IMG/VR virus record: IMGVR_UViG_2585427970_000001
Direction: 5' to 3' (one strand)
DNA: 64,000 nucleotides
Source of the DNA: a virus
Taxonomy: Duplodnaviria; Heunggongvirae; Uroviricota; Caudoviricetes
Shown: in pieces, positions 1,785 to 49,466 of the stretch
How the letters are laid out: each line of letters starts with the position of its first letter
How positions within the stretch are numbered: the first letter of the stretch is position 1
Translations under genes and position numbers: made by a program
The notes under the pieces: generated by a model
What the model was told of the DNA's origin: nothing
What the model saw: the letters and a program-made list of their open reading frames with translations, nothing else
Databases searched by the model: none

Positions 1785-4700
1785 ATGAATAAAATATATA
1801 AAGTGATATGGAACCACAGTACTCAGCAGTGGGATGTGGTTTCAGAACTTACAGGTAACAAAAAAAAATGTAAATCTGCTCGCTTAAACCTGGCGTTAGC
1901 CGCTGCTCTTTTTACCGGATCTATGGCGGTTAATTGCAGCAGCGCATTCGCGGATATTTCTCTTGATTCGGCATGGCGTCCGGCACAGAACAACAACCTT
2001 GTTGGGGCCGAGACTGTTAACGGCACGACGGAAAATATCATAGGGCCGATATCGGTCGTTTCTGGTTCTTCTGGTCTCGTTGGCATGACTGTTGATGAAG
2101 CAAAAGCAGAGGGATACATTACGGCTGGGGATGATCTTACCGGATTATTATATATTGACACAGGCGGAAGAACCAAAGCCCTTCAGTACTGGGATGCTGC
2201 GACCGGCGCGTACAGAACGGTACAGGTATATGACAATGACGCTTTTTCTCAGCGGGCTGCAGGCTCATCTGCGAATGAACTCATTTCCGGTTTTGCGCCT
2301 GATGCTGGTTTTTTCTATAAAACCCGTTTTGTTACTGTAACCAATGGTGGTACGGCCAATATTGATGTTGGCGCAGATTTTATTGGTCGCTATTTCAAAG
2401 ATACTCAGCTCGCTGTTGCTGATGGAGCTGGATCAACTGTTAACTGGAATTCTGAAAATGAGTTCTACTTGCAGGCCGCAGCAACTTCTACAAACGGGCT
2501 CACATATACCGCCACAATTGACTCAAAAGCATATGCTGGCACATTTACTGACTGGCAGGGACAACAGCATCAGGTTAATTCACAGGCAGACTTACAGCAA
2601 TATAATGATTATCTGACTCAGGCGATTGTTGACGGTAAGCTGACTGCCTCTCAGTATGAGACTGAATTTAACAGGGCTATTATAACCACCACGCATACGT
2701 ATGATGTTGATCGTACTGCAGGGGGTAAAATTGATCCTGCTATATATCAGGCTGGTATCGGAACACTTGCTGTACTTGAAGCTAGAAATGGTGGAACTGC
2801 ACGACTCAGTTCAACCGGCAAATTAACAGGCATATTGCCGAGTGTTGGGCGTGGAGCTGGTATCATTGCTCGCTCGGGCGGTACAGGTATCAACGAGGGT
2901 ATTATAGATGCTACAGGTATTGCGATGCGTGCATACGGTAACAGCACCATTGTTAATGATGGCACTATCTATTCAGGGATCAACAATTCTAAACACGGAC
3001 GACATGGTGAGGGAATGGTGGCAATTGATGCCGATTCCCTCGCAATAAATAATGGTGTTATTAATATCCGGCCATATAAAGTTGCAACAGTTAATCAGGA
3101 TGGCATCAACACGGCAATGCTAGTGGCTGGTGGCGGTGAAGGAATTAATAATGGCACCATCAATATTACGGCGGATGCTTCAGTTATTGACAGTAAGGGA
3201 CTAACCCGGGGGATCAGTGTGGGTGACGGAGGTTCCTTTACCAATGCATCCACTGGCAAAATCACCGTCGGTGTGGCTGAAGATGGCAGCGCAGCGCATT
3301 CAGCTGTCGGCTCTGTTGCGATTGAGGTTGCGCAAGGGGCAACCCGTGTTATTAATGAAGGGACAATTCTCCTGGGGGAAGGGGCTCAGGGGAACTACGG
3401 TATTTCAGCATCGAACGTCGGAGCAGTAAATACAGTCATCAATAAAGGGACTATCACAGTTGAAGGGCATGACAGCGATACACCTGCACTGAATGTCGGC
3501 ATGTTTGCAAATAACAGCACCGGGCTGAAAAACACCGGGGTTATTAATGTGAATGGCCTGAACAGTGCCGGATTACAGGTCATAAACGGAGGCCAGATAG
3601 CGTCTGACGGTACTGTAAATGTTGGTGGCGTGGATATCAGTAGTGGTTTCCGTAACTATGGTGCATGGGTGGAAGGCACCGGAAGCCGTGTTGATATATC
3701 CGGCGAAATTAGCCTTACTGGTGACGGTGCAGTGGGGGTTTTTGCCAAAGATGGCGGAGACCTGACCCTGTCAGGGAATGGTGCGGTGGTATTCGGTGGC
3801 AGTAACCAGGTGGGGTTTTATGTCTACGGTGATGGTTCCACCATTCATAATACCGGGAACAGTGTTATGGATGTTTCCACCGAAAATTCAACGTTATTCC
3901 GTATTGCCAGCGGGGCGGTATACCGGGGGGGCACAGGGGCATCCTCTGATCTGACGGCATCCGGTAAGAACTCGTATGCGCTTGTTGCCACTGGCAGGTC
4001 TGACACAGGCACTGCCTCAACCGTCACATCCGGAGGGATGACCATCAACCTGACGGGAGAGGGGGCGACTGCTGTCTTGGTAGAGGGCGGGGCACAGGGC
4101 TCAATTGACAGTAATGCCACTATCAATATGGATAATGCCAGCGCGATTGCCGGTATTGCGGATGGCAACGGGTATGATATTTCCGGCAATCTTATTAATC
4201 CAAAAGACAAGACTACATTATTAACAGCAGGTGCTCAGCTGAGCTCTTCTCAGGATAAAGTAACCGGGTATATCGCCCGCAATGGGGCAACCCTGGAGAA
4301 CACCGGTAATATCACCTTTACCGGAAAGAACACGACCGGTATCCGGGTCGAGGAAGGCGCTGCTGGCACCAACAGTGGAAATATCCTCGTTCAGGATGGC
4401 GGTGTGGGATTACTTGCCCGCGGCTCACAGGACGCCACGACCATTAATAACACCGGTAATCTGGTCCTCAGTGGGGGGAATAATGCCAACCGTACTACCG
4501 GGATTAAAGCTTCCGGTGCAGCAACAACAGTTAATATGACCGCTGGCACACTCGATCTGCAGGGGCAGGGGGCGATTGGCGTTGAGGTCAGTGAACAGGG
4601 AACGGTGAATCTTGAGGGGACTGCCATTCCTAAGTTTGCTGCTGACGATTCCGGCATTACCGATCAGATTGCTTTCCGTATTATCGGAGATGGTGCAACC

Positions 4701-7700
4701 ATCAATACGAAGGTTGCACAGGGAACGCTGCTGGAAGCCAGTGGGCAGCGGTCAGTGCTCTTCCGTATTGAAGACGGGGCAAAACAGATTGGCTCTCTGC
4801 AGATGAAAACCTCCGGGACAGGCAGCCGGGGGATCTGGGCCACCGGTAAAGGCAGTGATGTACAGGCGGAGGCCGGCAGTGATTTCCAGATCCTGGGGGA
4901 CCTAGCTCAGGGATTGTATGTCACTGGCGGTGCAACAGCGACCCTGAAACAGGGGATATCCGTTGATCTTGTGGGTGACGGGGCCGTGGTCGCGGAAGTG
5001 GACGGTAATGAGTACGCGCTCGATGGCAGTATTACACAAACGAATACTGGCTCGGTTATTACCAATGAGGCAGATATCTCTTCGCCGCTGAATAATGCCA
5101 AGGGCTTTATTACGCGTAATCAGGGACTGTTGATTAACAGCGGCAACATTGATTTCACTGCCGGTACCGATAATATCGGCGTCTGGGTTGATAACGGTCG
5201 CTTTGAAAATACGGGAAACCGTATTGCGGTCAATGGTGTTGCTTTATTTGTTGAAGGCGCACAGTCTCAGATCACCAGCACGGGAGGGGATATCGTCGCT
5301 GTGGACGGTGAGGCTGCCATTAAGCTGGGGGCGGGCGCGTCACTGAACCTGGCAGGGAGTGGGCTGGGAACGATTGAGGGCCAGAAAAATGCACATGGCA
5401 TCCTGCTGGATACAGGGGCTGTGGGGCTGGTTATTGATGGTGCGAAAATTAATGTGAATGCTGCAGGTGCGGTTGGTCACGGGATTGAGAACCGCGCAGA
5501 AATTGAAGGCATTCAGTTAACCAATACGACTGAAATTAATGTGGCTGATGGCATTGGTGTGCGTACTTCAGCTTCGCTGGCTAAGACCAACAGCGGCACT
5601 ATTAATGTAGATGGCAGCGGAATTGCACTGGCGTTCCGGAAAGCTGACGGAAGTGAAACCGATAATAACCTGGATATGTCTGACTCCGGCGGATTAGTCA
5701 TTAATCTGAAAGGCACGGGCGGCACGGGTATTTTCGCCAACACTAAAGATGGTGCTGTCGTGAAGAGTGGTGCAAGTGTCAATGTTACACAGGCCGATGG
5801 CGGTTCCGCTCTGGTGGTTAACAATGCGGCCAGTGAAGTGGTTCAGAGCGGTAATCTCATTTCTGTTTCTCTGAATCATGCTGTAGTGGATGCATCAAAA
5901 GCACTGTCCTTTACCAATACAGGTCAGATTAAAGCCGCGTCCGCTGCCGGGACTGCAATGGCGTTTGATGACGCCGTGAATACCACCGTACTGAATGACA
6001 GCGGTGCTGAAATTCAGGGGGTTGTGGCTCTGAACGGCGGTGATAACACATTTACCAATAAAGGCAGTATTACCGGAACCGTCAGTGCAAAAGATGGCAA
6101 CAACACATTGTTATTTGATGACGGCAGCACACTGACAGGTGAAGCGACTGCAGGAAACGGCAATAACAATGTAACGCTTAACGGCAGGACACATGTTGAC
6201 CAGGTGATTGCAGGTACAGGACAGAATACCTTCACCATTAAAGGTGAAGGGGCAACCTGGGATCTGCTGGATGGCGGGCAGGGAGATTCTGATTCCCTGA
6301 TTTTTGATAACGCCATTCATACGCTGGATTCTGCTGCAAAGATACAGAACTTTGAACATGTCGGGCTGAAAAATGGTTCCGTTGTCACCCTGAAGGAGGC
6401 ACTGGTGCTGACGGACGGTGGCGCCGGGGCGGGCTCTGTCGATATTGAATCGGGCAGTGAACTGAGCATTACCCCTGCCACAGCAGGCGACTTTACCTTT
6501 GATCCATTGTTAACGGGCAAAGGCACGCTGTCCGCTCAGCTTGATGCCGACACCTCTGCTTTTGAATTCAGCCATAACGTCGGGGATCAGTTTGCCGGCA
6601 CCCTGAAACTGGGCACCAGCAGTTTTGCGCTGGAAGGGCTGAATACGAAGGGGTTGACCCATGCCATGTTGGTGTCTGAAACCGGAAATATCACAACGGT
6701 TGGCTCCGGTGTTCAGAGGATTGGCGGTCTTGGATTCAGTGGCGGAACACTGAATTTTGGTTCTGTCAGCCCGGGAGATATTGTTGCCGGCAACCGTATT
6801 GAAACCTCTGCCGCAGGTACACTGGATCTTCGCGGTCAGGGCACAATTCAGGTCACCATGCCGGTGGTGGTTAATGATATTCCGGTGGTTGATACCCGTA
6901 AGAATCTGCTTGAGCAGGACGATGCGCAGACCCTGGTCACACTGGTGGATGCTAAGGGAACCGTTACCGGCACCGGTGGACAGTTGCAACTGGTGGATGA
7001 AAATGGCCAGGTCATTTCTCACAGTCAGACGTTCGATGTGACTCAGGGCGGTGAAGTGGTGGCCCAGGGGAACTATGACTACAAGATGCTGGGAAGTTCC
7101 GACGGTATTAACGGTGATGGGCTGTATATCGGCTATGGCCTGAAATCGCTGAATTTGCAAGGGACAGGTGATAAAGCGCTGGTGCTGACCCCGAGAGCGA
7201 ACGCACAGGGGCTGCAGTCAGATCTCGGTGCTCAGTTAACGGGAACAGGGGATCTGGCGATAGACGCTGTGGGGCAGGTTGTCACACTGTCCAACGGTGG
7301 TAATAACTACACCGGTGATACGCTGGTGCGCAGCGGCACACTGCAGATGGCAAATGATAATGTGCTTGGCGCTACAGGCAGCCTGAACGTTGCCAGCAAT
7401 GCCGTCTTCAGAACAGACGGATACAGCCAGACGGTGGGTGCACTGCAGACAGAAACGGGAGCGCACATTCAGCTTGATAGCGGTAGTGTACTCACGGTCA
7501 GCGGCACGCAGCGTCAGCCGGGCGATAATAATGGTGGCATCATTGAAAACAATGTGCTGACCGGAGACGGTACGCTGGCTGTCACGGGCAGCAATCTGAC
7601 GGTACATGGCACCAATATCGGGTTCTCCGGTAATGTCAGCCTTACCCGGGGTTCGCTGGTTGAAATGAACGGCGCACAGGGGCTGGGAAGTCTGGGGACC

Positions 7701-9734
7701 GTCAGCTTTGAAAGCCTGAATGACCGTCTGGCGATTGATATCGCCGACGGTAGCGGAGTCAGCAGTAACCTGAGTAAATCGCTTTCCGGAGAAGGTTCAG
7801 TGGACATACTGAACACGACTGATCTGACGCTTTCCGGGGATAACAGTAATTTCAGCGGTGAATTCCGTGTGCAGAAAGATGCTGCTATGCGGGCTTCAGA
7901 TGAAAAACACCTGGGCACCGGGCTGATTGACAGCGAGGGTGTCACCTGGCTTACTGCCAGCGACAGCTGGTTGCTGAAAAATGACATTACGGGTTCCGGT
8001 GCGCTGGTGAAACAGGGGGCGGGTAATCTGATCATTAATCATGAGCTGGCTTATACCGGTGATACCACTGTTGAGAACGGTGTCCTGATTGTCGGTGATG
8101 ATTCAGTCACCAGCGCCGCTGATGCGACGCTGTCAGGCTCCGGAAATATTCATGTTCTCAATGGCGGCACACTCAGTGGGCAGGGTACCGTTGCAGGTCA
8201 TGTAAATAACCAGGGAACGCTGGCATCACTGAATGCACTTTCAGGCTATGAGAACGCAGAAGTAAGCAATTTTACGGTTGGCTCACTGACCAATACCGGC
8301 GTCATTCGTCTGGCCGGTGGTAAGACAGGAAATACCCTGACCGTAAATGGCGATTACACCGGTGGCGGTACGTTAATTATCAATACCGTGCTGGGGGATG
8401 ATACCTCTGCCACTGACAAATTGATTGTCACGGGTAACACTTCCGGCGATACCGGCGTGGTGGTGAATAACGTCCGGGGCCAGGGTGCTCAGACCGCTGA
8501 CGGCATTGAGATTGTGCATGTCGGTGGTCAGTCTGACGGTAACTTCAGACTGGAGAATCGTGCTGTGGCCGGGGCATGGGAATATTTCCTGCATAAAGGT
8601 AATGCGGGTGGTACCGACGGTAACTGGTATCTGCGCTCTGAATTGCCGCCGGAGCCGGGGACAAAACCGGAGACAAAACCGGAGACAAAACCGGAGACAA
8701 AACCGGAGACAAAACCGGAGACAAAACCAACACCGGATAAACCTGTGCAGACGGTCTATCGCCCGGAGGCTGGCTCATATATTTCGAACATTGCGGCGGC
8801 TAACACGCTGTTCAACACCAGAATGCACGATCGTGAGGGGGAAACTTACTATACCGACGTGTTTACTGGTGAGAAAAAAGCAACCAGTATGTGGATGCGT
8901 CATGTTGGCGGTCATAATCGCTGGAAGGACAGTAGTTCACAACTGAATACGCAAAGCAACCGCTATGTTGTGCAACTGGGTGGCAGCATTGCACAGTGGA
9001 CTGACGGTCAGGAGCGTCTGCAGCTGGGTATTATGGCCGGTTACGGGAATGAGAAGAGCTCCACGACATCCTCGGTTTCGGGATATAAATCTAAAGGCTC
9101 GATCAGCGGTTACAGTACCGGTTTATACGGAACGTGGCAGCAGAATGACGGCAATGACACCGGGGCTTATGTTGACACCTGGATCCAGTACGGCTGGTTT
9201 AATAATACTGTTAATGGTGAAAAACTGGCGGCGGAGTCCTGGAAATCCCGTGGATTTACCGGTTCAGTGGAAGCAGGTTATACCTTCAAAGCCGGCGAAT
9301 TTACCGGCAGTCAGGGAAGTCACTATGACTGGTATATTCAGCCACAGTCCCAGCTTACGTGGATGAATGTAAGAGCCGGCGAACATAAGGAGAAAAACGG
9401 CACGAAAGTTCAGCTTAACGGAGACGGCAATATCCAGAGTCGTCTGGGCGTCAGAACTTACCTGAAAGGTAAGAGTGCGTCTGATGACAATAAGGCGCAT
9501 CAGTTCGAGCCTTTTGTGGAGGTTAACTGGATCCATAATACACAGGACTGGAGTGTCAAAATGGATAATACGGTACTCAGTCAGGACGGAGCCACAAATA
9601 TTGCTGAAGTCAAAACGGGGGTTCAGGGTAAATTGTCAGACAACCTGAATATCTGGGGCAATGTTGGCGTTCAGGTCGGCGATAAAGGGTACAGTGATGC
9701 CCAGGCAATGCTGGGTATTAAATATACATTTTAA
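1785..9734 (+). CDS. Type Va (AIDA-I/Ag43-like) autotransporter adhesin, 2649 aa
   Basis: N-terminal extended signal peptide region MNKIYKVIWNHSTQQW...AFA; long Gly/Thr/Asn-rich beta-helix-type passenger; (PETK)n linker; C-terminal beta-barrel with YRPEAGSYI...MWMRHVGGHNRW... ending GIKYTF. Confidence 0.9.
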   Translation: MNKIYKVIWNHSTQQWDVVSELTGNKKKCKSARLNLALAAALFTGSMAVNCSSAFADISLDSAWRPAQNNNLVGAETVNGTTENIIGPISVVSGSSGLVGMTVDEAKAEGYITAGDDLTGLLYIDTGGRTKALQYWDAATGAYRTVQVYDNDAFSQRAAGSSANELISGFAPDAGFFYKTRFVTVTNGGTANIDVGADFIGRYFKDTQLAVADGAGSTVNWNSENEFYLQAAATSTNGLTYTATIDSKAYAGTFTDWQGQQHQVNSQADLQQYNDYLTQAIVDGKLTASQYETEFNRAIITTTHTYDVDRTAGGKIDPAIYQAGIGTLAVLEARNGGTARLSSTGKLTGILPSVGRGAGIIARSGGTGINEGIIDATGIAMRAYGNSTIVNDGTIYSGINNSKHGRHGEGMVAIDADSLAINNGVINIRPYKVATVNQDGINTAMLVAGGGEGINNGTINITADASVIDSKGLTRGISVGDGGSFTNASTGKITVGVAEDGSAAHSAVGSVAIEVAQGATRVINEGTILLGEGAQGNYGISASNVGAVNTVINKGTITVEGHDSDTPALNVGMFANNSTGLKNTGVINVNGLNSAGLQVINGGQIASDGTVNVGGVDISSGFRNYGAWVEGTGSRVDISGEISLTGDGAVGVFAKDGGDLTLSGNGAVVFGGSNQVGFYVYGDGSTIHNTGNSVMDVSTENSTLFRIASGAVYRGGTGASSDLTASGKNSYALVATGRSDTGTASTVTSGGMTINLTGEGATAVLVEGGAQGSIDSNATINMDNASAIAGIADGNGYDISGNLINPKDKTTLLTAGAQLSSSQDKVTGYIARNGATLENTGNITFTGKNTTGIRVEEGAAGTNSGNILVQDGGVGLLARGSQDATTINNTGNLVLSGGNNANRTTGIKASGAATTVNMTAGTLDLQGQGAIGVEVSEQGTVNLEGTAIPKFAADDSGITDQIAFRIIGDGATINTKVAQGTLLEASGQRSVLFRIEDGAKQIGSLQMKTSGTGSRGIWATGKGSDVQAEAGSDFQILGDLAQGLYVTGGATATLKQGISVDLVGDGAVVAEVDGNEYALDGSITQTNTGSVITNEADISSPLNNAKGFITRNQGLLINSGNIDFTAGTDNIGVWVDNGRFENTGNRIAVNGVALFVEGAQSQITSTGGDIVAVDGEAAIKLGAGASLNLAGSGLGTIEGQKNAHGILLDTGAVGLVIDGAKINVNAAGAVGHGIENRAEIEGIQLTNTTEINVADGIGVRTSASLAKTNSGTINVDGSGIALAFRKADGSETDNNLDMSDSGGLVINLKGTGGTGIFANTKDGAVVKSGASVNVTQADGGSALVVNNAASEVVQSGNLISVSLNHAVVDASKALSFTNTGQIKAASAAGTAMAFDDAVNTTVLNDSGAEIQGVVALNGGDNTFTNKGSITGTVSAKDGNNTLLFDDGSTLTGEATAGNGNNNVTLNGRTHVDQVIAGTGQNTFTIKGEGATWDLLDGGQGDSDSLIFDNAIHTLDSAAKIQNFEHVGLKNGSVVTLKEALVLTDGGAGAGSVDIESGSELSITPATAGDFTFDPLLTGKGTLSAQLDADTSAFEFSHNVGDQFAGTLKLGTSSFALEGLNTKGLTHAMLVSETGNITTVGSGVQRIGGLGFSGGTLNFGSVSPGDIVAGNRIETSAAGTLDLRGQGTIQVTMPVVVNDIPVVDTRKNLLEQDDAQTLVTLVDAKGTVTGTGGQLQLVDENGQVISHSQTFDVTQGGEVVAQGNYDYKMLGSSDGINGDGLYIGYGLKSLNLQGTGDKALVLTPRANAQGLQSDLGAQLTGTGDLAIDAVGQVVTLSNGGNNYTGDTLVRSGTLQMANDNVLGATGSLNVASNAVFRTDGYSQTVGALQTETGAHIQLDSGSVLTVSGTQRQPGDNNGGIIENNVLTGDGTLAVTGSNLTVHGTNIGFSGNVSLTRGSLVEMNGAQGLGSLGTVSFESLNDRLAIDIADGSGVSSNLSKSLSGEGSVDILNTTDLTLSGDNSNFSGEFRVQKDAAMRASDEKHLGTGLIDSEGVTWLTASDSWLLKNDITGSGALVKQGAGNLIINHELAYTGDTTVENGVLIVGDDSVTSAADATLSGSGNIHVLNGGTLSGQGTVAGHVNNQGTLASLNALSGYENAEVSNFTVGSLTNTGVIRLAGGKTGNTLTVNGDYTGGGTLIINTVLGDDTSATDKLIVTGNTSGDTGVVVNNVRGQGAQTADGIEIVHVGGQSDGNFRLENRAVAGAWEYFLHKGNAGGTDGNWYLRSELPPEPGTKPETKPETKPETKPETKPETKPTPDKPVQTVYRPEAGSYISNIAAANTLFNTRMHDREGETYYTDVFTGEKKATSMWMRHVGGHNRWKDSSSQLNTQSNRYVVQLGGSIAQWTDGQERLQLGIMAGYGNEKSSTTSSVSGYKSKGSISGYSTGLYGTWQQNDGNDTGAYVDTWIQYGWFNNTVNGEKLAAESWKSRGFTGSVEAGYTFKAGEFTGSQGSHYDWYIQPQSQLTWMNVRAGEHKEKNGTKVQLNGDGNIQSRLGVRTYLKGKSASDDNKAHQFEPFVEVNWIHNTQDWSVKMDNTVLSQDGATNIAEVKTGVQGKLSDNLNIWGNVGVQVGDKGYSDAQAMLGIKYTF
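8655..8726 (+). repeat. 6 x 12-bp in-frame tandem repeat (CCGGAGACAAAA) encoding (PETK)n in the autotransporter linker
   Basis: Direct read: one CCGGGGACAAAA unit followed by five CCGGAGACAAAA units. Confidence 0.9.
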
Positions 9735-24590: not shown

Positions 24591-27503
24591 TTATGGTAAT
24601 GCGCTCTTGATTAACTGATAAATATCATCATTAGCAAACTGCGTTCTGAATTCAACTTTAACAGACTGACTTATTTGATTGAAAAGCGCTTGGGCATGTT
24701 CAATTTTCCGTTTTTCTTCAAGCCGTAAACTATCCTTACTATCTACGTTTTTTGTTTCAATGATAAAATTAAGATAATCACCTTCCGCTGTTTTTACAAC
24801 ATAAGCAAAATCGGGTGAGTAAGTGTATCCACCAGCTACCGGGATCTTAATAGAATTCTTCGGTATCTTTGAAAAAACAACAACAGACTGGATCTCTCTA
24901 TCTGTTATATTACGCCTTTCAAGCTCTGAATCATAAAAAACTTCTTCAAAAAGATAAGTATCTAATGGTGCTTTTGCATTATCCTGCAATACACCAAGAT
25001 CACTTGATAATACCTCGCCTAGAGGATTACCATCAGCATTTGTGAACTTTGTAGGATGAATTGAACCCGAAATCAAATTATATCCGAGGCTGAATTTATT
25101 AAACGAATTGTTCAACAAATACTTACTAAAACCAGATTTAATTTTTCTGATTGTTTGAATATTAAGGTATTCAGTGATATTAATAGTGTCTTTTATATCA
25201 CAAAAAACTTTATGTAAAGTACCGTGTTTAACAAAAATAGTCTGTGATAAGTTATCGAGAAACTCTCGATAGCTCATTGTGTTCAGCTTAGCAAAGTCAT
25301 CGTCATCACTGACAATGCTTTTCGACATTGCCATATCATTGTGGATGTAAATTTTATCAATGCGAGTATGAACGCCTGATTTGGTAAATCGTTCTGTTTC
25401 TTCGAGCATGAATGACTTGAAAATGGATAAAAATTCACTTTCACTGTTTATTTTGTACTCAATCACCGCTTTTTGATTGATCAAATCCCATAGTTCTTTC
25501 AGCTCACTGAACTTACCAACACGCATTTTAGTGCGTCTTTTTCCATCAGTAGCTTTTTTGATTTTACCAGGTTTCACTCCTATAGGGAATGCTGCTGGAT
25601 ATTTGGATTTTAAGCGGCTATAGGCATCTGAATCTTTGAAATTATCATTGTCATCAATGATTTCATCATTGAAAAGTTCATTCATTAGTGCTCTGGATGA
25701 AAGCTCAGGATACTGAGCCATGATTTGTTCCTTAAGCTCTTGAGTAAACTTACTTGGAACCCTTTCTTTGAAAGAACTCTCGTTGACCTCTTTAACAAGT
25801 GAGTCAACAAAATCCTTTTCTGTAAAATCAACATAATATTTAAGGGTAAAATTGCGGTCTTTCACTCGACACATGTATTCATTCACAGGAAGACGCAAAC
25901 CGCGCCCTACCTCTTGAAGCTTAGATGTGGTACTACCGCTCGAACGGAGCTTACAGATCTGAAAAACATTAGGATTATCCCACCCCTCACGCAACGTCCA
26001 TTTTGAGAAAATAAACCGACGGGGATTATCTAAAGACAGCAAAAGCTCTTTGTCATGAAGGATTTCGTTGATTTCCTGCTCGATTTTATCATCCTTATCA
26101 CTGTTATCTTTTGAGAAATAACCACCATGAACGGAAGATATATTTGTGACTGTTTTTTCAAGATAGTTTTTATAAAACGCATCTTGCTCTGTTTTTAACA
26201 GTTCATTAGCTTCTGCCAGAACGTATTCTTCGAATTTGGTCTTCAGGCTTCCGGAAATATCATTACCGTCACGATAGCCTTCAATATCGTCAATAAAGAA
26301 AAGAGTAAGAGGCTTTATGCGTGGCCTTTGTGTCAGAAGTTCTTTTTCTAACTTAAAGTGTTCTTTGACAGCCTTACGCATCATGTTATCAGCGAGTGTC
26401 TGATCGTAAGAATAGGGATTTATTGAGCTACCAATCTTCAACTCAATACCATTACTCAACACTGCTGTGCTCTTGTTTAAAGCATCAAGAGTTAAATCAT
26501 GGATCGCACTATGCGTCTTAGACAGTGATTCACCTTTAGCTAACTTAAACGATTTTTTGTTGTTGTTTTCATTCAGTTCAAATGTAGCTTCCTTTCCGTC
26601 AGATTTGACGAATTTGAGGTTTGCGTTACCATCGCCGACTATATCCTCAATATATGCATCAATACCTTTAACGAGATCATCGTTAAATGCGTCCACGGCT
26701 GTAAGACGATAAACCAGGTTCTTATAGCCTTCGCTAAAGGTTGCGCCATAGCGGATAATATATTGTGCGTTAAATTTCTCTATGTTTTCCCATGTTTTTT
26801 TACCAGTAGGAAATCTATGTGGTTCGTCAATGATGATAAATGGTTTTACAGCTCTGAGCGCGTCAACTGGAGTATTAAACTGATTATCAAGCAAGCCAGT
26901 ATCGTAAGTATCCGTTAAAGACTTAGAGTTGATCATTCCTGAGTTAATAACAAGAACGTGTATATATTTTTTATTGAAGTTACTTGCTTCAACAAAATCA
27001 TGTATAGCCTGAGGCATATACGATTTTGTATTTTTGCCAGCGTTTTTCTGACTTTCAACAACGTAAGTTCTCAGCTCACGCTTGTAATCATCCCGGAAGT
27101 GTTCTTTTAAAGCATCACTTTTTAAAAAGTTAACGGTTCCGGCCTTGATAGATAGAGTCGGAACAATGATGATAAACTTGTTAATACCAAATGATTTATT
27201 CAGGTCAAAAATAGTTTTGATATAGGTGTACGTCTTGCCTGTACCTGTCTCCATAGAAACATCAATGATGTTGCTTTTAGCATTGTGATTATCTTTTGAG
27301 TGCGCAATACCATTGAACGCCTGAACATTTTTTATATTGTTGTAGTATTGTTGTTCAGACAGCTTCAGTTCAGGATTAGCTAAAAGGCGAACAGCAACAT
27401 TATCCGTCAGGTGAGGTGTTGCGGAAACAAAAACATTCATCACCGCATCGACTCCTGCTTTCTGATGCGGCAAGTTCTTTTCGAGAGTGAACCCTTTTGA
27501 CAT
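24591..27503 (-). CDS. res: Type III restriction endonuclease, Res subunit (helicase-nuclease)
   Basis: 970 aa; Walker A-like ETGTGKTYT and DEPH box (IIIDEPHRF); start overlaps the mod stop. Confidence 0.9.
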   Translation of the reverse strand: MSKGFTLEKNLPHQKAGVDAVMNVFVSATPHLTDNVAVRLLANPELKLSEQQYYNNIKNVQAFNGIAHSKDNHNAKSNIIDVSMETGTGKTYTYIKTIFDLNKSFGINKFIIIVPTLSIKAGTVNFLKSDALKEHFRDDYKRELRTYVVESQKNAGKNTKSYMPQAIHDFVEASNFNKKYIHVLVINSGMINSKSLTDTYDTGLLDNQFNTPVDALRAVKPFIIIDEPHRFPTGKKTWENIEKFNAQYIIRYGATFSEGYKNLVYRLTAVDAFNDDLVKGIDAYIEDIVGDGNANLKFVKSDGKEATFELNENNNKKSFKLAKGESLSKTHSAIHDLTLDALNKSTAVLSNGIELKIGSSINPYSYDQTLADNMMRKAVKEHFKLEKELLTQRPRIKPLTLFFIDDIEGYRDGNDISGSLKTKFEEYVLAEANELLKTEQDAFYKNYLEKTVTNISSVHGGYFSKDNSDKDDKIEQEINEILHDKELLLSLDNPRRFIFSKWTLREGWDNPNVFQICKLRSSGSTTSKLQEVGRGLRLPVNEYMCRVKDRNFTLKYYVDFTEKDFVDSLVKEVNESSFKERVPSKFTQELKEQIMAQYPELSSRALMNELFNDEIIDDNDNFKDSDAYSRLKSKYPAAFPIGVKPGKIKKATDGKRRTKMRVGKFSELKELWDLINQKAVIEYKINSESEFLSIFKSFMLEETERFTKSGVHTRIDKIYIHNDMAMSKSIVSDDDDFAKLNTMSYREFLDNLSQTIFVKHGTLHKVFCDIKDTINITEYLNIQTIRKIKSGFSKYLLNNSFNKFSLGYNLISGSIHPTKFTNADGNPLGEVLSSDLGVLQDNAKAPLDTYLFEEVFYDSELERRNITDREIQSVVVFSKIPKNSIKIPVAGGYTYSPDFAYVVKTAEGDYLNFIIETKNVDSKDSLRLEEKRKIEHAQALFNQISQSVKVEFRTQFANDDIYQLIKSALP

Positions 27504-27505
27504 GA

Positions 27506-29461
27506 TTAGTTCCTCACCACCAAATCTAACTCAATAGATTTTTTATTAGCATAACTTTTTAGTGCTTCATTGAGTTCCATTTGCTTTGCGCTTTCAAAGT
27601 TGCTGCCATAAAACACGACTTTGTTTGGAGCAAAGTCTTTGTCTGAATCCACCTTTTGAAGTAACGCTTTCAATGCTTCGCTAGTAAAATTAGGTGCAAT
27701 CAAATACAGACGACCATCGCACAAATGTGCTTTGTAGCCACCAAGATCAACATCTTCAATAGGTGTTGTTAGCAAACTGCCATCATACAGGCACCATGTA
27801 GTTAATAGAGTGTCATATTGTTCAGGCGTCAAGACAACATCATCAAAGAATGTATGATTAGACAGTGTAAGTTCTGATTCGTCTTTAGCGCGAAAATCTG
27901 GCATTAGTTGATATACCTTAAACCCCTGATCCCTATTTTTTTTAGACGCCCTAATTAAACGCTCCTTTGTTAAGTCAAATATTGTATTATAGCCATGCTT
28001 CATGGCATCAGATTTATCTTTTGTAGGTTCATCTAGTTGAACTGTAATAAACTGATACGACGTTTTATTTTTGTTATTCAAATTAAAAACTGTATGCGCT
28101 GTAGTTCCTGACCCAGCAAAAAAATCCAAAACAATACCCTCTCCATCACATGCAAAAGATATTAAATCTTCTACTAATTTTATAGTTTTAGCATTTGTGA
28201 ATGGTTGAGTCATTTCTGGGAACAGCTCTTTAAGTTCGTTCGTTGCAACACGCCCATCAAGATGGATAACGGAGCTTAATTTCTGTTTGTAATCCTTAGC
28301 ATAAACTTTTAGTTCTATAATTTTGTTTTCATCATCACCGAAGATGATCTTTTCTTCAGACAGAAGCCTATCCATTGTATCTAATGGAAAACGATATCCC
28401 ATAAGAGGTTGTTTGCATGGCTTCTTAGTTTTTGGATGTATAATATCATATCTGTAACCCTCTTTTCCGGGGTTGTGGACGCTCTGACTACCAGTATAGA
28501 TGCCGTCTTTGTCTATATATTTGTATCGGTCAAGAGGCCATAATTCAGTTCTGTGTTCACGAAACCACTGGGTATATTTTTCCTGAAGTTCATTGCCAGT
28601 GTATTTTGATGCAAATTCTTCACCTATGTTGACAAGTAAGTTTTTTACATCGGAGATATTAGATTTCCACTCACTTATAAGCTGCTCTTTGTTTTTTGTG
28701 TAAACAATAATATATTCATGCTCTACAGCGATATTTGAAGGGTTGTTATCAGTTGCATTTTTCCATACTAGATCCCCAACATGGTTTTGCTCACCAAAGA
28801 TCTCGTCGCAAACTAGTTTTAATTGACTGAACTCATTATGGTCAATAGAAATAAAAATAGTCCCGTCTTCTCTCATTAATTCACGAGCAATATAAAGGCG
28901 TGGGTAAATGAATGTCAGCCATGCACTATGACTGCTTGACCCCTTGGTGGTAAATTCTAATATGCGTTTAGCCTCATCGAGGTCGATGCCTGCTAGTTCA
29001 GAAAGCTGCTCAGGTGTAAATTTGCGATCATCATTATAAACGAACCCATCCTTACCTGTATTGTATGGTGGGTCAATGTAAATCATCTTCACCTTTTCAG
29101 CGTAAGCATTAACCATATGCTTCAATACTTCGAGATTATCCCCTTTGATTAACAGGTGTTGACTGTTCTTGTTCTCTTCTTGTTGGTTATGAGTTTTATC
29201 TTCTGCCAACAACGTTTTCGGTGGTAGATTGGCCAACAAACGGGCATAAGATTTACCCAGCCAGTTCAAGCTGTATGATTCTTTAGAGAGTTCAACTTCC
29301 GATGCCCTAATAATCTCAAGCAATTTTTCTTGAATGAAGGCTCCGTTTTTATCAAAACACTGAGGGAAATTAGCTTTCAACACAGCCAGTTGCTTGCTGT
29401 TAGCCGTTTCTACTTCGGAAAAAATCGTTTCTTTTTTCATATCCATTTTAAACCAGATCAT
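27506..29461 (-). CDS. mod: Type III N6-adenine DNA methyltransferase, Mod subunit
   Basis: 651-aa ORF; motif IV DPPY (...IYIDPPYN...) precedes motif I FxGxG (...DFFAGSGTT...), the beta-class order; variable central region; alternative starts 5 or 7 codons in. Confidence 0.9.
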   Translation of the reverse strand: MIWFKMDMKKETIFSEVETANSKQLAVLKANFPQCFDKNGAFIQEKLLEIIRASEVELSKESYSLNWLGKSYARLLANLPPKTLLAEDKTHNQQEENKNSQHLLIKGDNLEVLKHMVNAYAEKVKMIYIDPPYNTGKDGFVYNDDRKFTPEQLSELAGIDLDEAKRILEFTTKGSSSHSAWLTFIYPRLYIARELMREDGTIFISIDHNEFSQLKLVCDEIFGEQNHVGDLVWKNATDNNPSNIAVEHEYIIVYTKNKEQLISEWKSNISDVKNLLVNIGEEFASKYTGNELQEKYTQWFREHRTELWPLDRYKYIDKDGIYTGSQSVHNPGKEGYRYDIIHPKTKKPCKQPLMGYRFPLDTMDRLLSEEKIIFGDDENKIIELKVYAKDYKQKLSSVIHLDGRVATNELKELFPEMTQPFTNAKTIKLVEDLISFACDGEGIVLDFFAGSGTTAHTVFNLNNKNKTSYQFITVQLDEPTKDKSDAMKHGYNTIFDLTKERLIRASKKNRDQGFKVYQLMPDFRAKDESELTLSNHTFFDDVVLTPEQYDTLLTTWCLYDGSLLTTPIEDVDLGGYKAHLCDGRLYLIAPNFTSEALKALLQKVDSDKDFAPNKVVFYGSNFESAKQMELNEALKSYANKKSIELDLVVRN

Positions 29462-37158: not shown

Positions 37159-39887
<2,729 letters not shown>

Positions 39888-39889
<2 letters not shown>

Positions 39890-41215
39890 CACCCTCCACG
39901 CCCTGACGGGCGTGGATTCCTGCTACGTTCAGGCTGTCGCCTGAATCATTTCGGTGGGTTCCTGCTTCAACGGGCGGCCTGACTGCACCATCCCTCCACA
40001 GGCAAGTACGGCGTGCCCCGCCGCTAAAATGTTACGAGCGCCGTTTACATCGGCGTTCGCTGTATATCCACATACCTGGCATCTGAATTTACTTTGTGAC
40101 AGGCGATTTTCTTTCGCTGTATGACCACAGCACGCGCAACGCTGGCTTGTGTACGCTGGCGGAACAGCAAGCACCTGACCGCCACGCCAGAGCTGCTTGT
40201 ACTCAAGCTGGCGGCGCATTTCATACCAGCCCTGATCCAGTATCGAACGGTTTAAACCTGATTTTGCCCGGACATTGCGACCCGGATGACTTATCGTTCC
40301 CGCCGCTGACTTTGACATGTATTTAACCTTCAAATCCTCAATGACAATCATTGCGTGGTTTTTGCTGACGGTCGTTGTGACTTTGTGAAGGTAGTCCCTG
40401 CGGATATTTGCGATACGGGAATGCAGTCGCTGTATTTTGCGTTTCTGCTTCTGCCAGTTGTTGCTGAATTTGACCTTGCGGCTTAACTGGCGCTGAAGTC
40501 TCGCCAGCTTTTTCTGGTTTTTCTGGAAACTGTTTACAGGCTCAAAGACTGTGCCATCTGACAGCGTGGCGAGCCTGGCCACGCCAGCATCCAGTCCGAC
40601 CATTGATGCTGAAGGGTGAACAGGAGTGGATACTTCACTTTCTGTCTGAATACTGATGTACCATTTACCGCAGGACTGGCTGACAGTGACATTTTTCACA
40701 ATCCCCGTGACCTGCCGGCTGTTCCGGTAGCGCACCCAGCCAAGTTTCGGCAGAAAAATACGGCTGTTTTCCTGGTCGAGCTTAACACCCTGCGGGTAGC
40801 GGAATGCATCATTCTGTCCCCGCTTTTTGAATCGGGGAAAAGCCGCCCGCTTCTGGAAGAAATTTTTGTAGGCCCGCTCAAGGTCTTTCAGTGACTGCTG
40901 CAATGGCTGTGAGGGAGAATCTTTAAGCCATTCGGTTTCAGTGTCTTTTTTCCACTCAACCAACCAGGAAGCCATTTTCGTGTAAGGGATGTATTTATTC
41001 CCGGCCTCATAATTTTCATTCTGAAGTGCCAGTGCACGATTGAAAACGAAACGACAAGCTCCGGCAAAGAGCCTCATTTGACGCTCCTGTTGACCACCGG
41101 GTCTTAACTGGAATTTAAATGCTTGTAGTCGCTTCATCCCACTATTTTAAACAAAAACAGTTAGGTGGAAAACCACGCCTTATATCCCCGCCCTGAAGGA
41201 CGGGATTTTACGGCG
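39888..41215 (-). mobile_element. IS200/IS605-family element, tnpB-only (IS1341-type), copy 1; boundaries approximate
   Basis: TnpB ORF plus conserved 3' end with hairpin CCACGCCC-N5-GGGCGTGG and terminal TGTCA; left end homologous (about 80%) to copy 2. Confidence 0.75.
39929..41137 (-). CDS. tnpB: TnpB (OrfB_IS605, RuvC-like with Zn-finger) RNA-guided nuclease homologue
   Basis: 402 aa; CxxC...CxxC zinc finger (CACCGH...CQVCG); about 97% identical to the copy at 48216-49424. Confidence 0.9.
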
Positions 41216-41516: not shown

Positions 41517-42074
41517 TTATTCATTGACAAGCCCCGTCAGGCAAAGCTGGCGTTCTTCTTCACGGCGAATCTTTAACCCGGGCAGGGGGACGCCGTTACT
41601 GTTCACGAAATCAGGGAGATGGTTACACATATTCACCCATTCCCCTTTCTGCGCCCACTTGTGGATGGACGTTTCTACTCGCATGCCTCGCGCTTTGCTG
41701 TAGTAGGTCCGTAAGCTATTGCATCCCATATTGAATGCCGCGCTTGTCATTGCACTGAAGGCATTATCGGGCATGTCTTTGCCCCGGAAGTGCTGATTAA
41801 TACAGCGTTCAGCGATCAGGATATTCTTTTCCCAATCAGCGGCGATTTGCTGGTCTGTTTTTCGCACACCCGGCGTTACCCCGTGTGTATTACCGATCCC
41901 GTCAGTCCATACCCCTGCCGGGCACATGTATGGATCACGTCGGCAACCTTCAGCGTTACCAATCAGCTCAAGCCCAGCCTGGTTGGTTCGCACATTGCCA
42001 TTACCCATCACGATGGTAATCATCACCGCGATAGCGCAAATTGCACCGCCTCCTGCGGCTGTTTTTCCCTTCAT
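41517..42074 (-). CDS. lyz: SAR-endolysin Lyz (T4-lysozyme-type with N-terminal signal-anchor-release domain)
   Basis: 185 aa from MKGKTAAGGGAICAIAVMITIVMGNGNVRTNQAGLELIGNAEGCRRDPY...; the ORF extends 33 codons upstream to 42173. Confidence 0.9.
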   Translation of the reverse strand: MKGKTAAGGGAICAIAVMITIVMGNGNVRTNQAGLELIGNAEGCRRDPYMCPAGVWTDGIGNTHGVTPGVRKTDQQIAADWEKNILIAERCINQHFRGKDMPDNAFSAMTSAAFNMGCNSLRTYYSKARGMRVETSIHKWAQKGEWVNMCNHLPDFVNSNGVPLPGLKIRREEERQLCLTGLVNE

Positions 42075-42207: not shown

Positions 42208-42224
42208 ATTGCTCTAATTAATTT
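42208..42224 (+). promoter_or_regulatory. C1 operator (16/17) in the lyz-ssb divergent intergenic region
   Basis: ATTGCTCTAATTAATTT. Confidence 0.65.
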
Positions 42225-42243: not shown

Positions 42244-42768
42244 GTGGCACAACGCGGTGTAAACAAAGTCATCCTGATTGGTACCCTGGGGCAAGACCCG
42301 GAGATCATGTATATACCAAATGGCGGAGCGGTCGGAAGACTCAGCATCGCAACGAATGAATCATGGCGCGACAAGCAAACGGGCCAACAGAAAGAGCAAA
42401 CAGAATGGCATAAAGTCGTTTTGTTCGGAAAACTTGCTGAAATTGCGAGTGAGTATTTACGAAAAGGTTCTCAGGTCTACATCGAAGGGAAACTTAAAAC
42501 CCGTAAGTGGACAGATGACGCCGGTGTAGAACGTTACACGACGGAAATTATCGTCAGCCAGGGCGGCACCATGCAAATGATCGGCGCTCGCCGCGACGAT
42601 TCACAATTCTCAAATGGCTGGGGGCAGTCAAACCAACCTCAAAACCTCAAAACCACCAGCAATACAGCGGTGGCAGTAAACCTCAGAGCAACGCCAATAG
42701 CGAACCTCCAATGGACTTTGAAGACGATATTCCATTTTGAGAGGGCTGAAAGTTGCTCGATTACTTAA
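42244..42768 (+). CDS. ssb: Single-stranded DNA-binding protein; frame disrupted near 42640-42660, canonical C-terminus in another frame ending at 42740
   Basis: N-terminal OB-fold [20 protein letters not shown]...[50 protein letters not shown]; ...[12 protein letters not shown] is read in the -1 frame at 42702-42740. Confidence 0.8.
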
Positions 42769-42873
42769 AAATAACTTTACCTAATTGGTGTAAAAAAATG
42801 GGCGCAACAAAGCGCCCCAACAATAGAGTTTCAAATTAATAAAAAGGTAATAAATAACATGAAGTTAAATTGA

Positions 42874-42973: not shown

Positions 42974-44086
42974 TTAGAATTGGTAGGTCATACCAACAGC
43001 AACGATGTTGTCGGTTGCAACCTCAGATCTTTTGGTAAATTCACTTTCATCAATCAGGTTGATCTTGTAGTCAACGAAAGCGGACATATTTTTGTTGAAG
43101 TAATAAGTCGCACCCAAGTCGATGTATTCAACCAGATCCTGGCTGCCGAACGCACCAATATTTTCACCGCGAGAGTGCAGATAAGCGATGGACGGACGCA
43201 GGCCGAAATCAAACTGGTATTGAGCAACAGCTTCAAAGTTTTTCGCCTTGTTCGCGATAAAGTCATCACCGAAGACAGTCATATTCTGAGTTTCAGAATA
43301 AGTTGCAGCCAGGTAAATGTTATTTGCGTCATATTTCAGGCCAGTAGCCCATACTTCAGCAGTTTTACCAGAAGCATTCAGAGGATCCTTTTTAGCATAG
43401 GATACCTGCCCATCAGTACGATCAGATTTTGCATAGGTTGCACCAACGCCAAATCCTTCATAATCGTAAGTAGCAGACAGACCAAAGCCATCACCATTAG
43501 ATTCAACTACGTCACGGCCTTTCCAGTTGTTCACTTTTGCAGCACTATCATTTTTACCTTGATACTGCAAAGCAAAGTTCAGACCATCAACCAGGCCGAA
43601 GAAATCATTGTTACGGTAGGTGGCTACGCCAGTAGCACGCTGGGTCATAAATACATCGGTCTGAGTCCAGGTATCTCCACCAAACTCAGGCAGCACGTCA
43701 GTCCAAGCGCCAATATCATAAGCTACACCATAGTTGCGACCATAGTCGATTGAACCATAATCAGCAAAACGGAGGCCAGCAAATGCAAGACGAGTTTTAT
43801 CTTTATCAGAGCCCTCAGATTCAGTACGGTTACCTTTAAATTCGTACTCCCACTGACCAAAACCGGTTAACTGGTCATTAATCTGAGTTTCACCTTTGAA
43901 TCCCAGACGAGCATAAGTCTTATCTCCGTCATCACTAGCTGAAGAAGAGAAGTAATGTTCTGCGTTAACTTTGCCGTACAGATCCAGTTTATTACCGTCT
44001 TTGTTGTAGATTTCAGCTGCTTGCGCAGACATTGCCATCAGGACAGATGCTGCAACCGCAGAGAGTGCCACTGTGATTTTTTTCAT
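42974..44086 (-). CDS. General bacterial porin, OmpC/OmpF/PhoE family
   Basis: 370 aa; signal peptide [39 protein letters not shown]; beta-strand-rich body; C-terminal ...VGMTYQF. Confidence 0.9.
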
Positions 44087-48125: not shown

Positions 48126-49466
48126 GCCTTATCCAATGTGCCGCCCCCTACGCTCCTCATAGTGGGGATATAAGGCACAGTTTTCCTCCCGGCTATTTTT
48201 GCTTAAAATAGTGACATGAAACAACAGGTGTCATTCAAATTCCGGTTAAAACCAGATGGTCAACAGGAGCGTCAAATGAGGCGCTTTGCCGGAGCTTGTC
48301 GTTTCGTTTTCAACCGTGCTCTGGCGCTTCAGAATGAGAATCATGAGGCCGGTAAAAAATACATCCCTTACACGAAAATGGCTTCCTGGTTGGTTGAGTG
48401 GAAAAAAGACACTGAAACCGAATGGCTTAAAGATTCTCCCTCACAGCCATTGCAACAGTCACTGAAAGACCTTGAGCGGGCTTACAAAAACTTCTTCCGG
48501 AAGCGGGCAGCTTTTCCCCGATTCAAAAAGCGGGGACAGAATGATGCATTCCGCTACCCGCAGGGTGTTAAGCTCGATCAGGAAAACAGCCGTATTTTTC
48601 TGCCGAAACTTGGCTGGATGCGCTACCGGAATAGCCGTCAGGTCACGGGTATTGTGAAAAATGTTACTGTCAGCCAGTCCTGCGGTAAGTGGTACATCAG
48701 TATTCAGACAGAAAGAGAGGTATCCACTCCTGTTCACCCTTCAGCATCAATGGTCGGACTGGATGCTGGCGTGGCTAAACTCGCCACGCTGTCAGATGGC
48801 ACAGTCTTTGAACCTGTAAATAGTTTTCAGAAAAACCAGAAGAAGCTGGCGAGACTTCAGCGACAGTTAAGCCGCAAGGTCAAATTCAGCAACAACTGGC
48901 AGAAGCAGAAACGCAAAATACAGCGACTGCATTCCCGTATCGCAAATATCCGCAGGGACTACCTTCACAAAGTCACAACGACCGTCAGCAAAAACCACGC
49001 AATGATTGTCATTGAGGATTTGAAGGTTAAATACATGTCAAAGTCAGCGGCGGGAACGATAAGTCATCCGGGTCGCAATGTCCGGGCAAAATCAGGTTTA
49101 AACCGTTCGATACTGGATCAGGGCTGGTATGAAATGCGCCGCCAGCTTGAGTACAAGCAGCTCTGGCGTGGCGGTCAGGTGCTTGCTGTTCCGCCAGCGT
49201 ACACAAGCCAGCGTTGCGCGTGCTGTGGTCATACAGCGAAAGAAAATCGCCTGTCACAAAGTAAATTCAGATGCCAGGTATGTGGATATACAGCGAACGC
49301 CGATGTAAACGGCGCTCGTAACATTTTAGCGGCGGGGCACGCCGTACTTGCCTGTGGAGGGATGGTGCAGTCAGGCCGCCCGTTGAAGCAGGAACCCACC
49401 GAAATGATTCAGGCGACAGCCTGAACGTAGCAGGAATCCACGCCCTTCGGGGCGTGGAGGATGTCA
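48126..49466 (+). mobile_element. IS200/IS605-family element, tnpB-only, copy 2 (inverted relative to copy 1); boundaries approximate
   Basis: Left end follows TTAC at 48122-48125; right end ...GGAGGATGTCA overlaps the ddrA stop codon; inserted between ddrB and ddrA. Confidence 0.75.
48216..49424 (+). CDS. tnpB: TnpB (OrfB_IS605) RNA-guided nuclease homologue
   Basis: 402 aa, near-identical to copy 1; same Zn-finger and RuvC-like motifs. Confidence 0.9.

What the first reader, a model, noticed from the sequence alone, without database searches (positions are those of the whole stretch)
42244..42768. ssb reading frame disrupted: the canonical C-terminal tip [12 protein letters not shown] is encoded out of frame
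The OB-fold part is in the frame starting at 42244, but ...[21 protein letters not shown]-stop is read in the -1 frame, ending at 42740. The annotated frame instead ends ...[14 protein letters not shown] at 42768. The switch maps to an A-rich stretch around 42640-42660. This is either a genuine frameshift giving an SSB without its acidic protein-interaction tail, or a homopolymer sequencing error.
Basis: seen in the sequence. Interest (0 to 1): 0.55.

Follow-up and report, generated by a model that had tools for sequence, protein, structure and literature searches.

The report
Frameshifted ssb in P1-like plasmid
The single-stranded-DNA-binding gene of a P1/P7-like phage-plasmid has been knocked out of frame by a private 8-base tandem duplication, so its protein loses the tail that recruits partner proteins; this is an ordinary inactivating mutation in an accessory phage gene.

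Summary
The ORF 42244..42768 encodes an intact SSB OB fold. It then runs into 40 unrelated residues, while ...[13 protein letters not shown]-stop sits in another frame and ends at 42740.

The cause is not a homopolymer slip. It is a perfect 8-bp tandem duplication (AACCTCAA, 42635-42642 and 42643-42650) in the linker-coding region. P1, P7 and JL22 have one copy.

- **Unique allele:** none of 19 phage, 479 plasmid or 477 E. coli records carries it, and exact scans of three contig collections found nothing.
- **Clean sequence:** it is the only indel in about 32 kb of collinear alignment to phage JL22.
- **Independent assembly:** a Logan assembly of run SRR1824518 reproduces it, with 100% identity over 4802 bp.

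It is therefore most likely a real, isolate-specific frameshift. A second private change, R21M at an otherwise invariant arginine, fits a gene under relaxed constraint.

Other P1-like isolates carry different, independent 1-nt frameshifts into the same alternative frame. P1 ssb is C1-repressed and duplicates a host function, so its loss should be tolerated.

There is no sign of programmed frameshifting. Interest is low.

The parts
42244..42768 (+). ssb reading frame as it stands (174 aa): native residues 1-134, then 40 frameshift-derived residues, stop TAA 42766-42768
   Evidence: ORF list, translation. NCBIfam NF006533 matches only profile positions 1-147 of 177, at 235.9 bits against a cutoff of 260.
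42259..42561 (+). OB-fold ssDNA-binding domain (residues 6-106), intact
   Evidence: PF00436 at E 9.9e-39, profile positions 1-100 of 104. Matches E. coli-type SSB structures (7f2n, 1eqq, 1eyg) over query residues 1 to ~140.
42308..42308 (+). Private G->T substitution, AGG->ATG, giving Arg->Met at the position equivalent to E. coli SSB R21
   Evidence: P1, P7 and JL22 all have G here. The residue is R in 119 of the 120 retrieved proteins that carry the motif, and M only in the window's protein. No plasmid among 415 matches the 60-mer exactly.
42635..42650 (+). Perfect 8-bp tandem duplication AACCTCAA x2 (followed by AACC at 42651-54); the frameshifting lesion
   Evidence: TRF. An 8-column gap in P1, P7 and JL22 in alignment A1. 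Absent from all related records.
42651..42740 (+). Displaced native C-terminal coding segment ([29 protein letters not shown], stop TGA 42738-42740), now out of frame with no start codon of its own
   Evidence: Frame 2 translation. No + strand ORF of 20 aa or more ends at 42740. Deleting one 8-mer gives a 162-aa protein that matches NF006533 end to end at 263.4 bits, above the 260 cutoff.
42208..42224 (+). C1-repressor operator Op(ssb), ATTGCTCTAATTAATTT, with the upstream promoter region; intact
   Evidence: Position transferred from the P7 and P1 annotation. The 71 bases from 42180 into the start codon are identical to P1 and JL22.
42800..42817 (.). GC-rich hairpin between the convergent ssb and porin genes (terminator-like); the extended ORF stops before it
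   Evidence: Terminator scan.

Best explanation
The window is a P1/P7-like phage-plasmid. Its ssb gene lies between lyz and a porin gene and is controlled by the C1 operator Op(ssb). The gene carries a real, lineage-private 8-bp tandem duplication in the part that encodes the disordered linker. The ancestral sequence has AACC repeated 8 bp apart (AACCTCAAAACC), the classic substrate for slipped-strand mispairing, and I infer that this produced the duplication. The +8 shift changes the frame after residue 134. The last 28 native residues, including the acidic tip [10 protein letters not shown], are replaced by 40 unrelated residues that are basic and more hydrophobic. The product should keep the OB fold, and I infer that it still binds ssDNA and forms tetramers. 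It cannot present the tip through which bacterial-type SSBs recruit their partner proteins, so it is a loss-of-function allele for that role. The lesion is tolerated because P1 ssb is repressed by C1 in the plasmid-prophage state and duplicates the essential host ssb. A second private change, R21M at an invariant arginine, is consistent with relaxed constraint on a gene already on the way to being a pseudogene.
For: Shown directly:
- The 8-bp duplication and the resulting frames.
- It is absent from 19 phage, 479 plasmid and 477 E. coli records. The best identity is 96.0%, which is 193 of 201 bases, i.e. the 8-bp gap alone.
- Exact scans of the viral, genome and metagenome contig collections found nothing.
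- It is the only indel in 31,963 aligned columns against JL22. Blocks of 10,278, 4,823, 5,731 and 4,220 bp are gapless.
- Logan contig SRR1824518_470 encodes the identical 174-aa protein and is 100% identical to the window over 4802 bp.
- Removing one repeat copy restores a 162-aa SSB that matches NF006533 end to end above its cutoff. The ORF as it stands falls below the cutoff and matches only to profile position 147.
- The promoter, operator and RBS region is identical to P1.
- R21M is unique.
- Tail properties change from pI 4.1 to 9.3 and from GRAVY -1.43 to +0.08.
- Different 1-nt deletions in other P1-like isolates (L007, L008, L009) also destroy the tail.

From the literature:
- The nine-residue acidic tip is the major contact for SSB-interacting proteins, and at least two tails per tetramer are needed in vivo (PMC7145534).
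- P1 ssb is a C1-controlled gene induced in the lytic cycle (PMC4713147).
- Over-expressed P1 SSB complements E. coli ssb-1 (PMC3208561, citing Lehnherr 1999 and Bendtsen 2002).
Against: No read-level data could be inspected. The Logan contig may derive from the same reads as the window's source assembly, so it checks the assembly but is not necessarily independent sequencing. Whether the product is stable, tetrameric, inert or harmful was not tested. Tolerance of the loss is inferred from P1 biology, not measured in this element.
Confidence: 0.85

Rival explanations
1. Sequencing or assembly artefact: the real plasmid has one AACCTCAA copy and an intact ssb.
For: The allele was found in only one sample. 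Other frameshifted P1-like ssb sequences in public assemblies (L007, L008) are G5->G4 changes of the kind sequencing errors produce.
Against: The lesion is a perfect 8-bp unit duplication, not a change in homopolymer length. About 32 kb of neighbouring alignment has no other indel. An independent assembler (Logan) recovers the same sequence from SRR1824518. That contig ends inside the two IS copies, as a short-read graph assembly would, whereas the window spans them, which suggests two different assemblies agree (inference).
Confidence: 0.08
2. Adaptive loss or alteration: the tail-less SSB is selected, for example to escape a host defence that senses phage SSB, or it acts as a dominant-negative poison of host SSB tetramers on induction.
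For: At least four independent frameshift alleles in P1-like ssb remove the tail while sparing the OB fold. Phage SSBs are known triggers of Retron-Eco8 and DARNA defence, and escape mutants map to the sensed genes (PMC13402713, 10.64898/2026.02.22.705581, 10.1101/2022.08.27.505566). At least two tails per tetramer are needed for function (PMC7145534), so mixed tetramers could be defective.
Against: Every such allele is a singleton or in a tiny cluster, set against a wild-type cluster with 2151 member sequences. None of about 975 related records has this allele. Shifts into this frame simply run on the longest, because it happens to be open. A shift into the third frame also occurs (P0016). 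This is the pattern expected of sporadic neutral decay.
Confidence: 0.05
3. Programmed recoding: ribosomal frameshifting or transcriptional slippage restores the DDIPF tail from this sequence.
For: The native tail is still fully encoded downstream, with an A-rich context.
Against: There is no X XXY YYZ slippery heptamer anywhere in the gene, and the longest A run is 4. All relatives encode the tail in frame, so there is no conserved recoding site. The required shift is +8, equivalent to -1.
Confidence: 0.02

Closest known systems
Ssb of phages P7 (AAQ07494.1), JL22 (UOL50970.1) and P1 (YP_006485.1)
   Same: Same locus (lyz - Op(ssb) - ssb, with the nmpC/ompD-type porin downstream as in P7 and JL22). 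The DNA is 98.8% identical to JL22 over 801 bases, counting the 8-bp gap. The regulatory region is identical, and residues 1-134 are identical to JL22 except R21M.
   Different: An extra AACCTCAA copy shifts the frame. The product is 174 aa instead of 162 and lacks ...[28 protein letters not shown].
E. coli SSB C-terminal truncation and tip mutants (SSB deltaC8/deltaC10, ssb-113 P176S) - named from my own knowledge, with tip function supported by PMC7145534
   Same: An intact OB fold and part of the linker, without a functional acidic tip. The expected result is ssDNA binding without partner recruitment.
   Different: Here the tip is replaced by 40 foreign residues rather than simply deleted. 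The protein is an accessory phage copy co-existing with wild-type host SSB. No biochemistry was done.
Other frameshifted P1-like ssb alleles in public assemblies (P0005/L008, P0007/L007, P0009/L009, P0002, P0006, P0016)
   Same: They disrupt the same gene at or just before the linker-coding region and lose the tip. Most read into the same alternative frame (...[26 protein letters not shown]...).
   Different: These are independent single-base deletions (G5->G4 at the GWG codons; loss of G in AATGATC) in different sequence backgrounds. None has the 8-bp duplication.

Membership tests
Bacterial-type homotetrameric SSB (PF00436 / TIGR00621 / NF006533) | N-terminal OB-fold ssDNA-binding domain | tested here: met
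   PF00436 at E 9.9e-39 over residues 6-106. TIGR00621 at 168.8 bits against a cutoff of 53.95. Matches PDB E. coli-type SSBs at E ~1e-59.
Bacterial-type homotetrameric SSB (PF00436 / TIGR00621 / NF006533) | Conserved acidic tip (D-[DE]-D-I-P-F) at the extreme C-terminus, in frame | tested here: not met
   The ORF ends ...ERAESCSIT. The tip is encoded in another frame that ends at 42740. The NF006533 match stops at profile position 147 of 177 and scores 235.9, below the 260 cutoff.
Bacterial-type homotetrameric SSB (PF00436 / TIGR00621 / NF006533) | Invariant core residues of the OB fold | tested here: inconclusive
   All are conserved except Arg->Met at the R21 position, which is R in 119 of the 120 retrieved proteins that carry the motif. 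I found no source for the functional weight of R21.
Bacterial-type homotetrameric SSB (PF00436 / TIGR00621 / NF006533) | Tetramer formation, ssDNA binding, binding of partner proteins | not testable with these tools
   Requires biochemistry.
P1-group (Punavirus) ssb locus | Synteny lyz <- Op(ssb)/Pssb -> ssb with a C1 operator | tested here: met
   Collinear with the annotated features of P1, P7 and JL22. The operator and promoter region is identical.
Programmed ribosomal frameshift site | Slippery heptamer, and conservation of the out-of-frame arrangement in relatives | tested here: not met
   No X XXY YYZ heptamer in the gene. All relatives are in frame.
Homopolymer-length sequencing error | An indel of 1-2 bases inside a mononucleotide run, usually alongside similar indels elsewhere in the assembly | tested here: not met
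   The lesion is a duplicated 8-bp unit. There are no other indels in ~32 kb of high-identity alignment. A second assembly reproduces it.

The most novel reading that the evidence does not exclude
Loss of the SSB acidic tail with the OB fold retained may be a recurrent, selected state in P1-like phage-plasmids. At least four independent alleles are seen. It could let the element evade host defences that sense phage SSB (Retron-Eco8 or DARNA type), or alter its interplay with host SSB partners during induction. The co-occurring R21M change might then tune DNA binding of the tail-less protein.
Probability: 0.05. Interest if true: 0.45.

Novelty: already known. Interest (0 to 1): 0.12.

Why it matters
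It matters little beyond annotation. The gene should be flagged as a frameshifted ssb (a pseudogene, or a tail-less variant), not as an intact 'single-stranded DNA-binding protein'. The cause should be recorded as an 8-bp tandem duplication, not a suspected homopolymer error. It adds one more example that P1 ssb is dispensable in natural phage-plasmids. If the tail-less protein were expressed on induction, it would be a natural test of how a tip-less SSB behaves alongside wild-type host SSB.

Tried and rejected
- **Homopolymer error:** rejected on the nature of the lesion, the indel-free surroundings and the second assembly.
- **A shared variant C-terminus in relatives:** rejected. No record or contig has the duplication. 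The proteins that do share the alternative-frame tail arise from other frameshifts.
- **Programmed frameshift or slippage:** rejected. There is no slippery site and no long A run.
- **Separate translation of the tip as its own peptide:** rejected. No ORF of 20 aa or more with a start codon ends at 42740.
- **Phase-variable repeat:** considered and rejected. A 2.5-copy 8-mer can in principle slip back, but about 975 relatives all have the single-copy state, so this is not a contingency locus.
- **Dead ends in the literature:** SRR1824518 appears in no held paper, so platform and organism remain unknown. The P1 genome paper and both P1 SSB papers are not held. Searches for a described role of SSB R21 found nothing relevant.

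Full report
**What is in the sequence**

The + strand ORF 42244..42768 (GTG start, 174 aa) begins as a typical enterobacterial-type SSB and ends ...[45 protein letters not shown]. A different frame reads ...[32 protein letters not shown] and stops at 42738-42740. Pfam SSB (PF00436) matches residues 6-106 at E 1e-38. Solved E. coli-type SSB structures align only as far as residue ~140.

**Context**

The region is 96-99% identical to phages of the P1 group. The best matches are JL22 and phi456 (98.8%), then P7 (97.9%). P1 itself matches up to the end of ssb. The annotated neighbours in P7, JL22 and P1 are lydD, lyz, the late promoter LPlyz, the C1 operator Op(ssb), ssb, and in P7 and JL22 a convergent porin gene. 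The window has the same order: lyz at 41517-42074 (-), ssb, and the porin at 42974-44086 (-).

The 71 bases from 42180 into the ssb start codon, including the operator ATTGCTCTAATTAATTT at 42208-42224, are identical to P1 and JL22. Larger pieces of the window match many P1-like plasmids of E. coli, Salmonella and Klebsiella at 97.7-98.7% for the best-covering records, but no record is identical.

**The lesion**

Aligning the window's ssb with P7, JL22 and P1 shows a single 8-column gap in all three references. They read CAAACC-AACCTCAA-AACCACC, and the window reads CAAACC-AACCTCAA-AACCTCAA-AACCACC. Tandem Repeats Finder reports 42635-42654 with period 8, 2.5 copies, 100% match and unit AACCTCAA.

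The ancestral sequence already contains AACC twice, 8 bp apart. An 8-bp duplication is the expected product of slipped-strand mispairing there; this step is inference. The insertion shifts the frame after residue 134.

Deleting one copy in silico gives a 162-aa protein that matches NCBIfam NF006533 over profile positions 1-177 of 177 at 263.4 bits (cutoff 260). The ORF as it stands matches only positions 1-147 at 235.9 bits. The replaced tail changes as follows:

| Property | Native tail | Frameshift tail |
|---|---|---|
| Length | 28 aa | 40 aa |
| pI | 4.1 | 9.3 |
| GRAVY | -1.43 | +0.08 |

**Real mutation or error?**

- **Type of lesion:** it is a duplicated 8-mer, not a change in homopolymer length. 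The longest A run in the gene is 4.
- **Quality of the surroundings:** against JL22, the 6,911-column block containing ssb has exactly one gap opening of 8 bases. Four other high-identity blocks (10,278, 4,823, 5,731 and 4,220 bp) have none. The sequence is not indel-noisy.
- **Second assembly:** the exact 174-aa product is on record from a Logan assembly of run SRR1824518 (contig 470, 7,420 bp). That contig is 100% identical to the window over all 4,802 bp retrieved. It ends inside the two IS copies that flank this segment, as a short-read graph assembly would, while the window reads through both. Two different assemblies therefore agree (inference). Whether they share reads is unknown.

I could not inspect reads, and SRR1824518 is not mentioned in any held paper. 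I put the artefact explanation at about 8%.

**How common is it?**

A 201-base query across the site found 479 plasmid records and 477 E. coli records (474 genomes). The best hits were all 96.0% identical over 193 record bases, which is the 8-bp gap and nothing else. The 19 phage records also lack the extra copy. Exact-pattern scans of the viral, genome and metagenome contig collections found nothing. The allele is private to this isolate.

**A second private change**

Position 42308 is T where P1, P7 and JL22 have G. This turns AGG (Arg) into ATG (Met) at the position equivalent to E. coli SSB R21. Among the 120 retrieved proteins that carry the G.DPE..Y motif, this residue is R in 119 and M only in the window's protein. 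No plasmid among 415 matches the 60-mer around it exactly. I found no source for the role of R21. I read the change only as consistent with relaxed constraint.

**Other broken alleles**

The protein search returned several P1-type SSBs that also read into the alternative frame: P0005, P0002, P0006, P0007 and P0009. P0016 shifts into the third frame, P0013 is truncated, and P0014 is fused to unrelated sequence.

Their DNA shows different lesions. L007 and L008 have lost one G from the GGGGG run at the GWG codons, in two different SNP backgrounds. L009 has lost the G of AATGATC further upstream. None has the 8-bp duplication. All are singletons or tiny clusters, set against a wild-type cluster with 2,151 member sequences. 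This looks like sporadic, independent inactivation. The shared alternative tail exists only because that frame happens to be open.

**Consequence (inferred)**

In E. coli SSB the nine-residue acidic tip is the main contact for the SSB-interacting proteins, and at least two tails per tetramer are required in vivo (PMC7145534). P1 ssb is C1-controlled and induced in the lytic cycle (PMC4713147). Over-expressed P1 SSB can complement E. coli ssb-1 (PMC3208561, citing Lehnherr 1999 and Bendtsen 2002).

The window's product should therefore still have an ssDNA-binding core but be unable to recruit partners. The gene is silent in the lysogen and the host supplies SSB, so the lesion should be tolerated. 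Whether the altered protein is degraded, inert or mildly dominant-negative on induction is untested.

**Alternatives rejected**

- **Programmed frameshifting:** there is no slippery heptamer and no conservation of the arrangement.
- **Independent translation of the tip:** the displaced frame contains no start codon that would give an ORF of 20 aa or more ending at 42740.
- **Adaptive loss:** phage SSBs are known triggers of Retron-Eco8 and DARNA, so escape from an SSB-sensing defence cannot be excluded. The singleton distribution gives it no positive support.

**Verdict**

This is a genuine but ordinary frameshift allele, caused by an 8-bp tandem duplication, of a well-known accessory phage gene. 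The 'genuine frameshift' reading is supported and the 'homopolymer error' reading is not. Novelty: already known kind. Interest is low.

Noticed in passing
window 39887-41189 (-) and 48164-49466 (+): Two ~1.3-kb insertions absent from JL22. They are 95.7% identical to each other and in inverted orientation. Each encodes a 402-aa TnpB-type protein (OrfB_IS605 + Cas12f1-like TNB + HTH) with no separate transposase ORF seen. Together they bracket the lydD-lyz-ssb-porin-hxr-ddrB segment. The Logan short-read contig breaks inside both copies.
   Followed up: partly
window 976-1479 and 1785-9734 (+): Cargo not matched by JL22: a 2,649-aa type V autotransporter-like protein (ESPR signal peptide, PATR repeat, AC_1 autochaperone domain), preceded by a PapB-family regulator. 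No beta-barrel domain hit appeared at E<=0.001.
   Followed up: partly
window 24591-27503 (-) and 27506-29461 (-): A type III restriction-modification pair, absent from JL22 at this position. The 970-aa ORF has Res-type domains (ResIII + RE_endonuc). The 651-aa ORF has Mod-type domains (N6_N4_Mtase + EcoP15I C-terminal domain). From my own knowledge it looks like the P1 res/mod (EcoP1I-type) system.
   Followed up: partly
L007 ~1877, L008 ~1524, L009 ~1836: Independent 1-nt deletions inactivate ssb in other P1-like isolates. L007 and L008 show G5->G4 at the GWG codons in two SNP backgrounds. L009 has lost the G of AATGATC. The G5 run may be a recurrent hotspot for mutation or for sequencing error.
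   Followed up: partly
proteins P0110, P0026, P0045, P0075, P0079, P0083, P0091, P0100, P0103, P0107, P0117-P0119, P0123: Many enterobacterial SSB homologues, including one cluster of 302 members, carry a further 16-20 residues after ...DFDDDIPF (for example APFGHSVSRHALYALS). The canonical tip is then not at the free C-terminus. This is curious, because from my own knowledge partner binding is thought to use the terminal Phe carboxylate.
   Followed up: no
proteins P0008, P0010, P0011: SSB sequences of 236-271 aa with an internal direct duplication of the N-terminal half of the OB fold (for example ...[20 protein letters not shown]...). They are either real tandem duplications within ssb or assembly artefacts.
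   Followed up: no
window 42974-44086 (-): A 370-aa porin gene convergent with ssb, as in P7 (nmpC) and JL22 (ompD). P1 itself has isaA and IS1 at this position instead, so the window belongs to the P7/JL22-like arrangement.
   Followed up: partly
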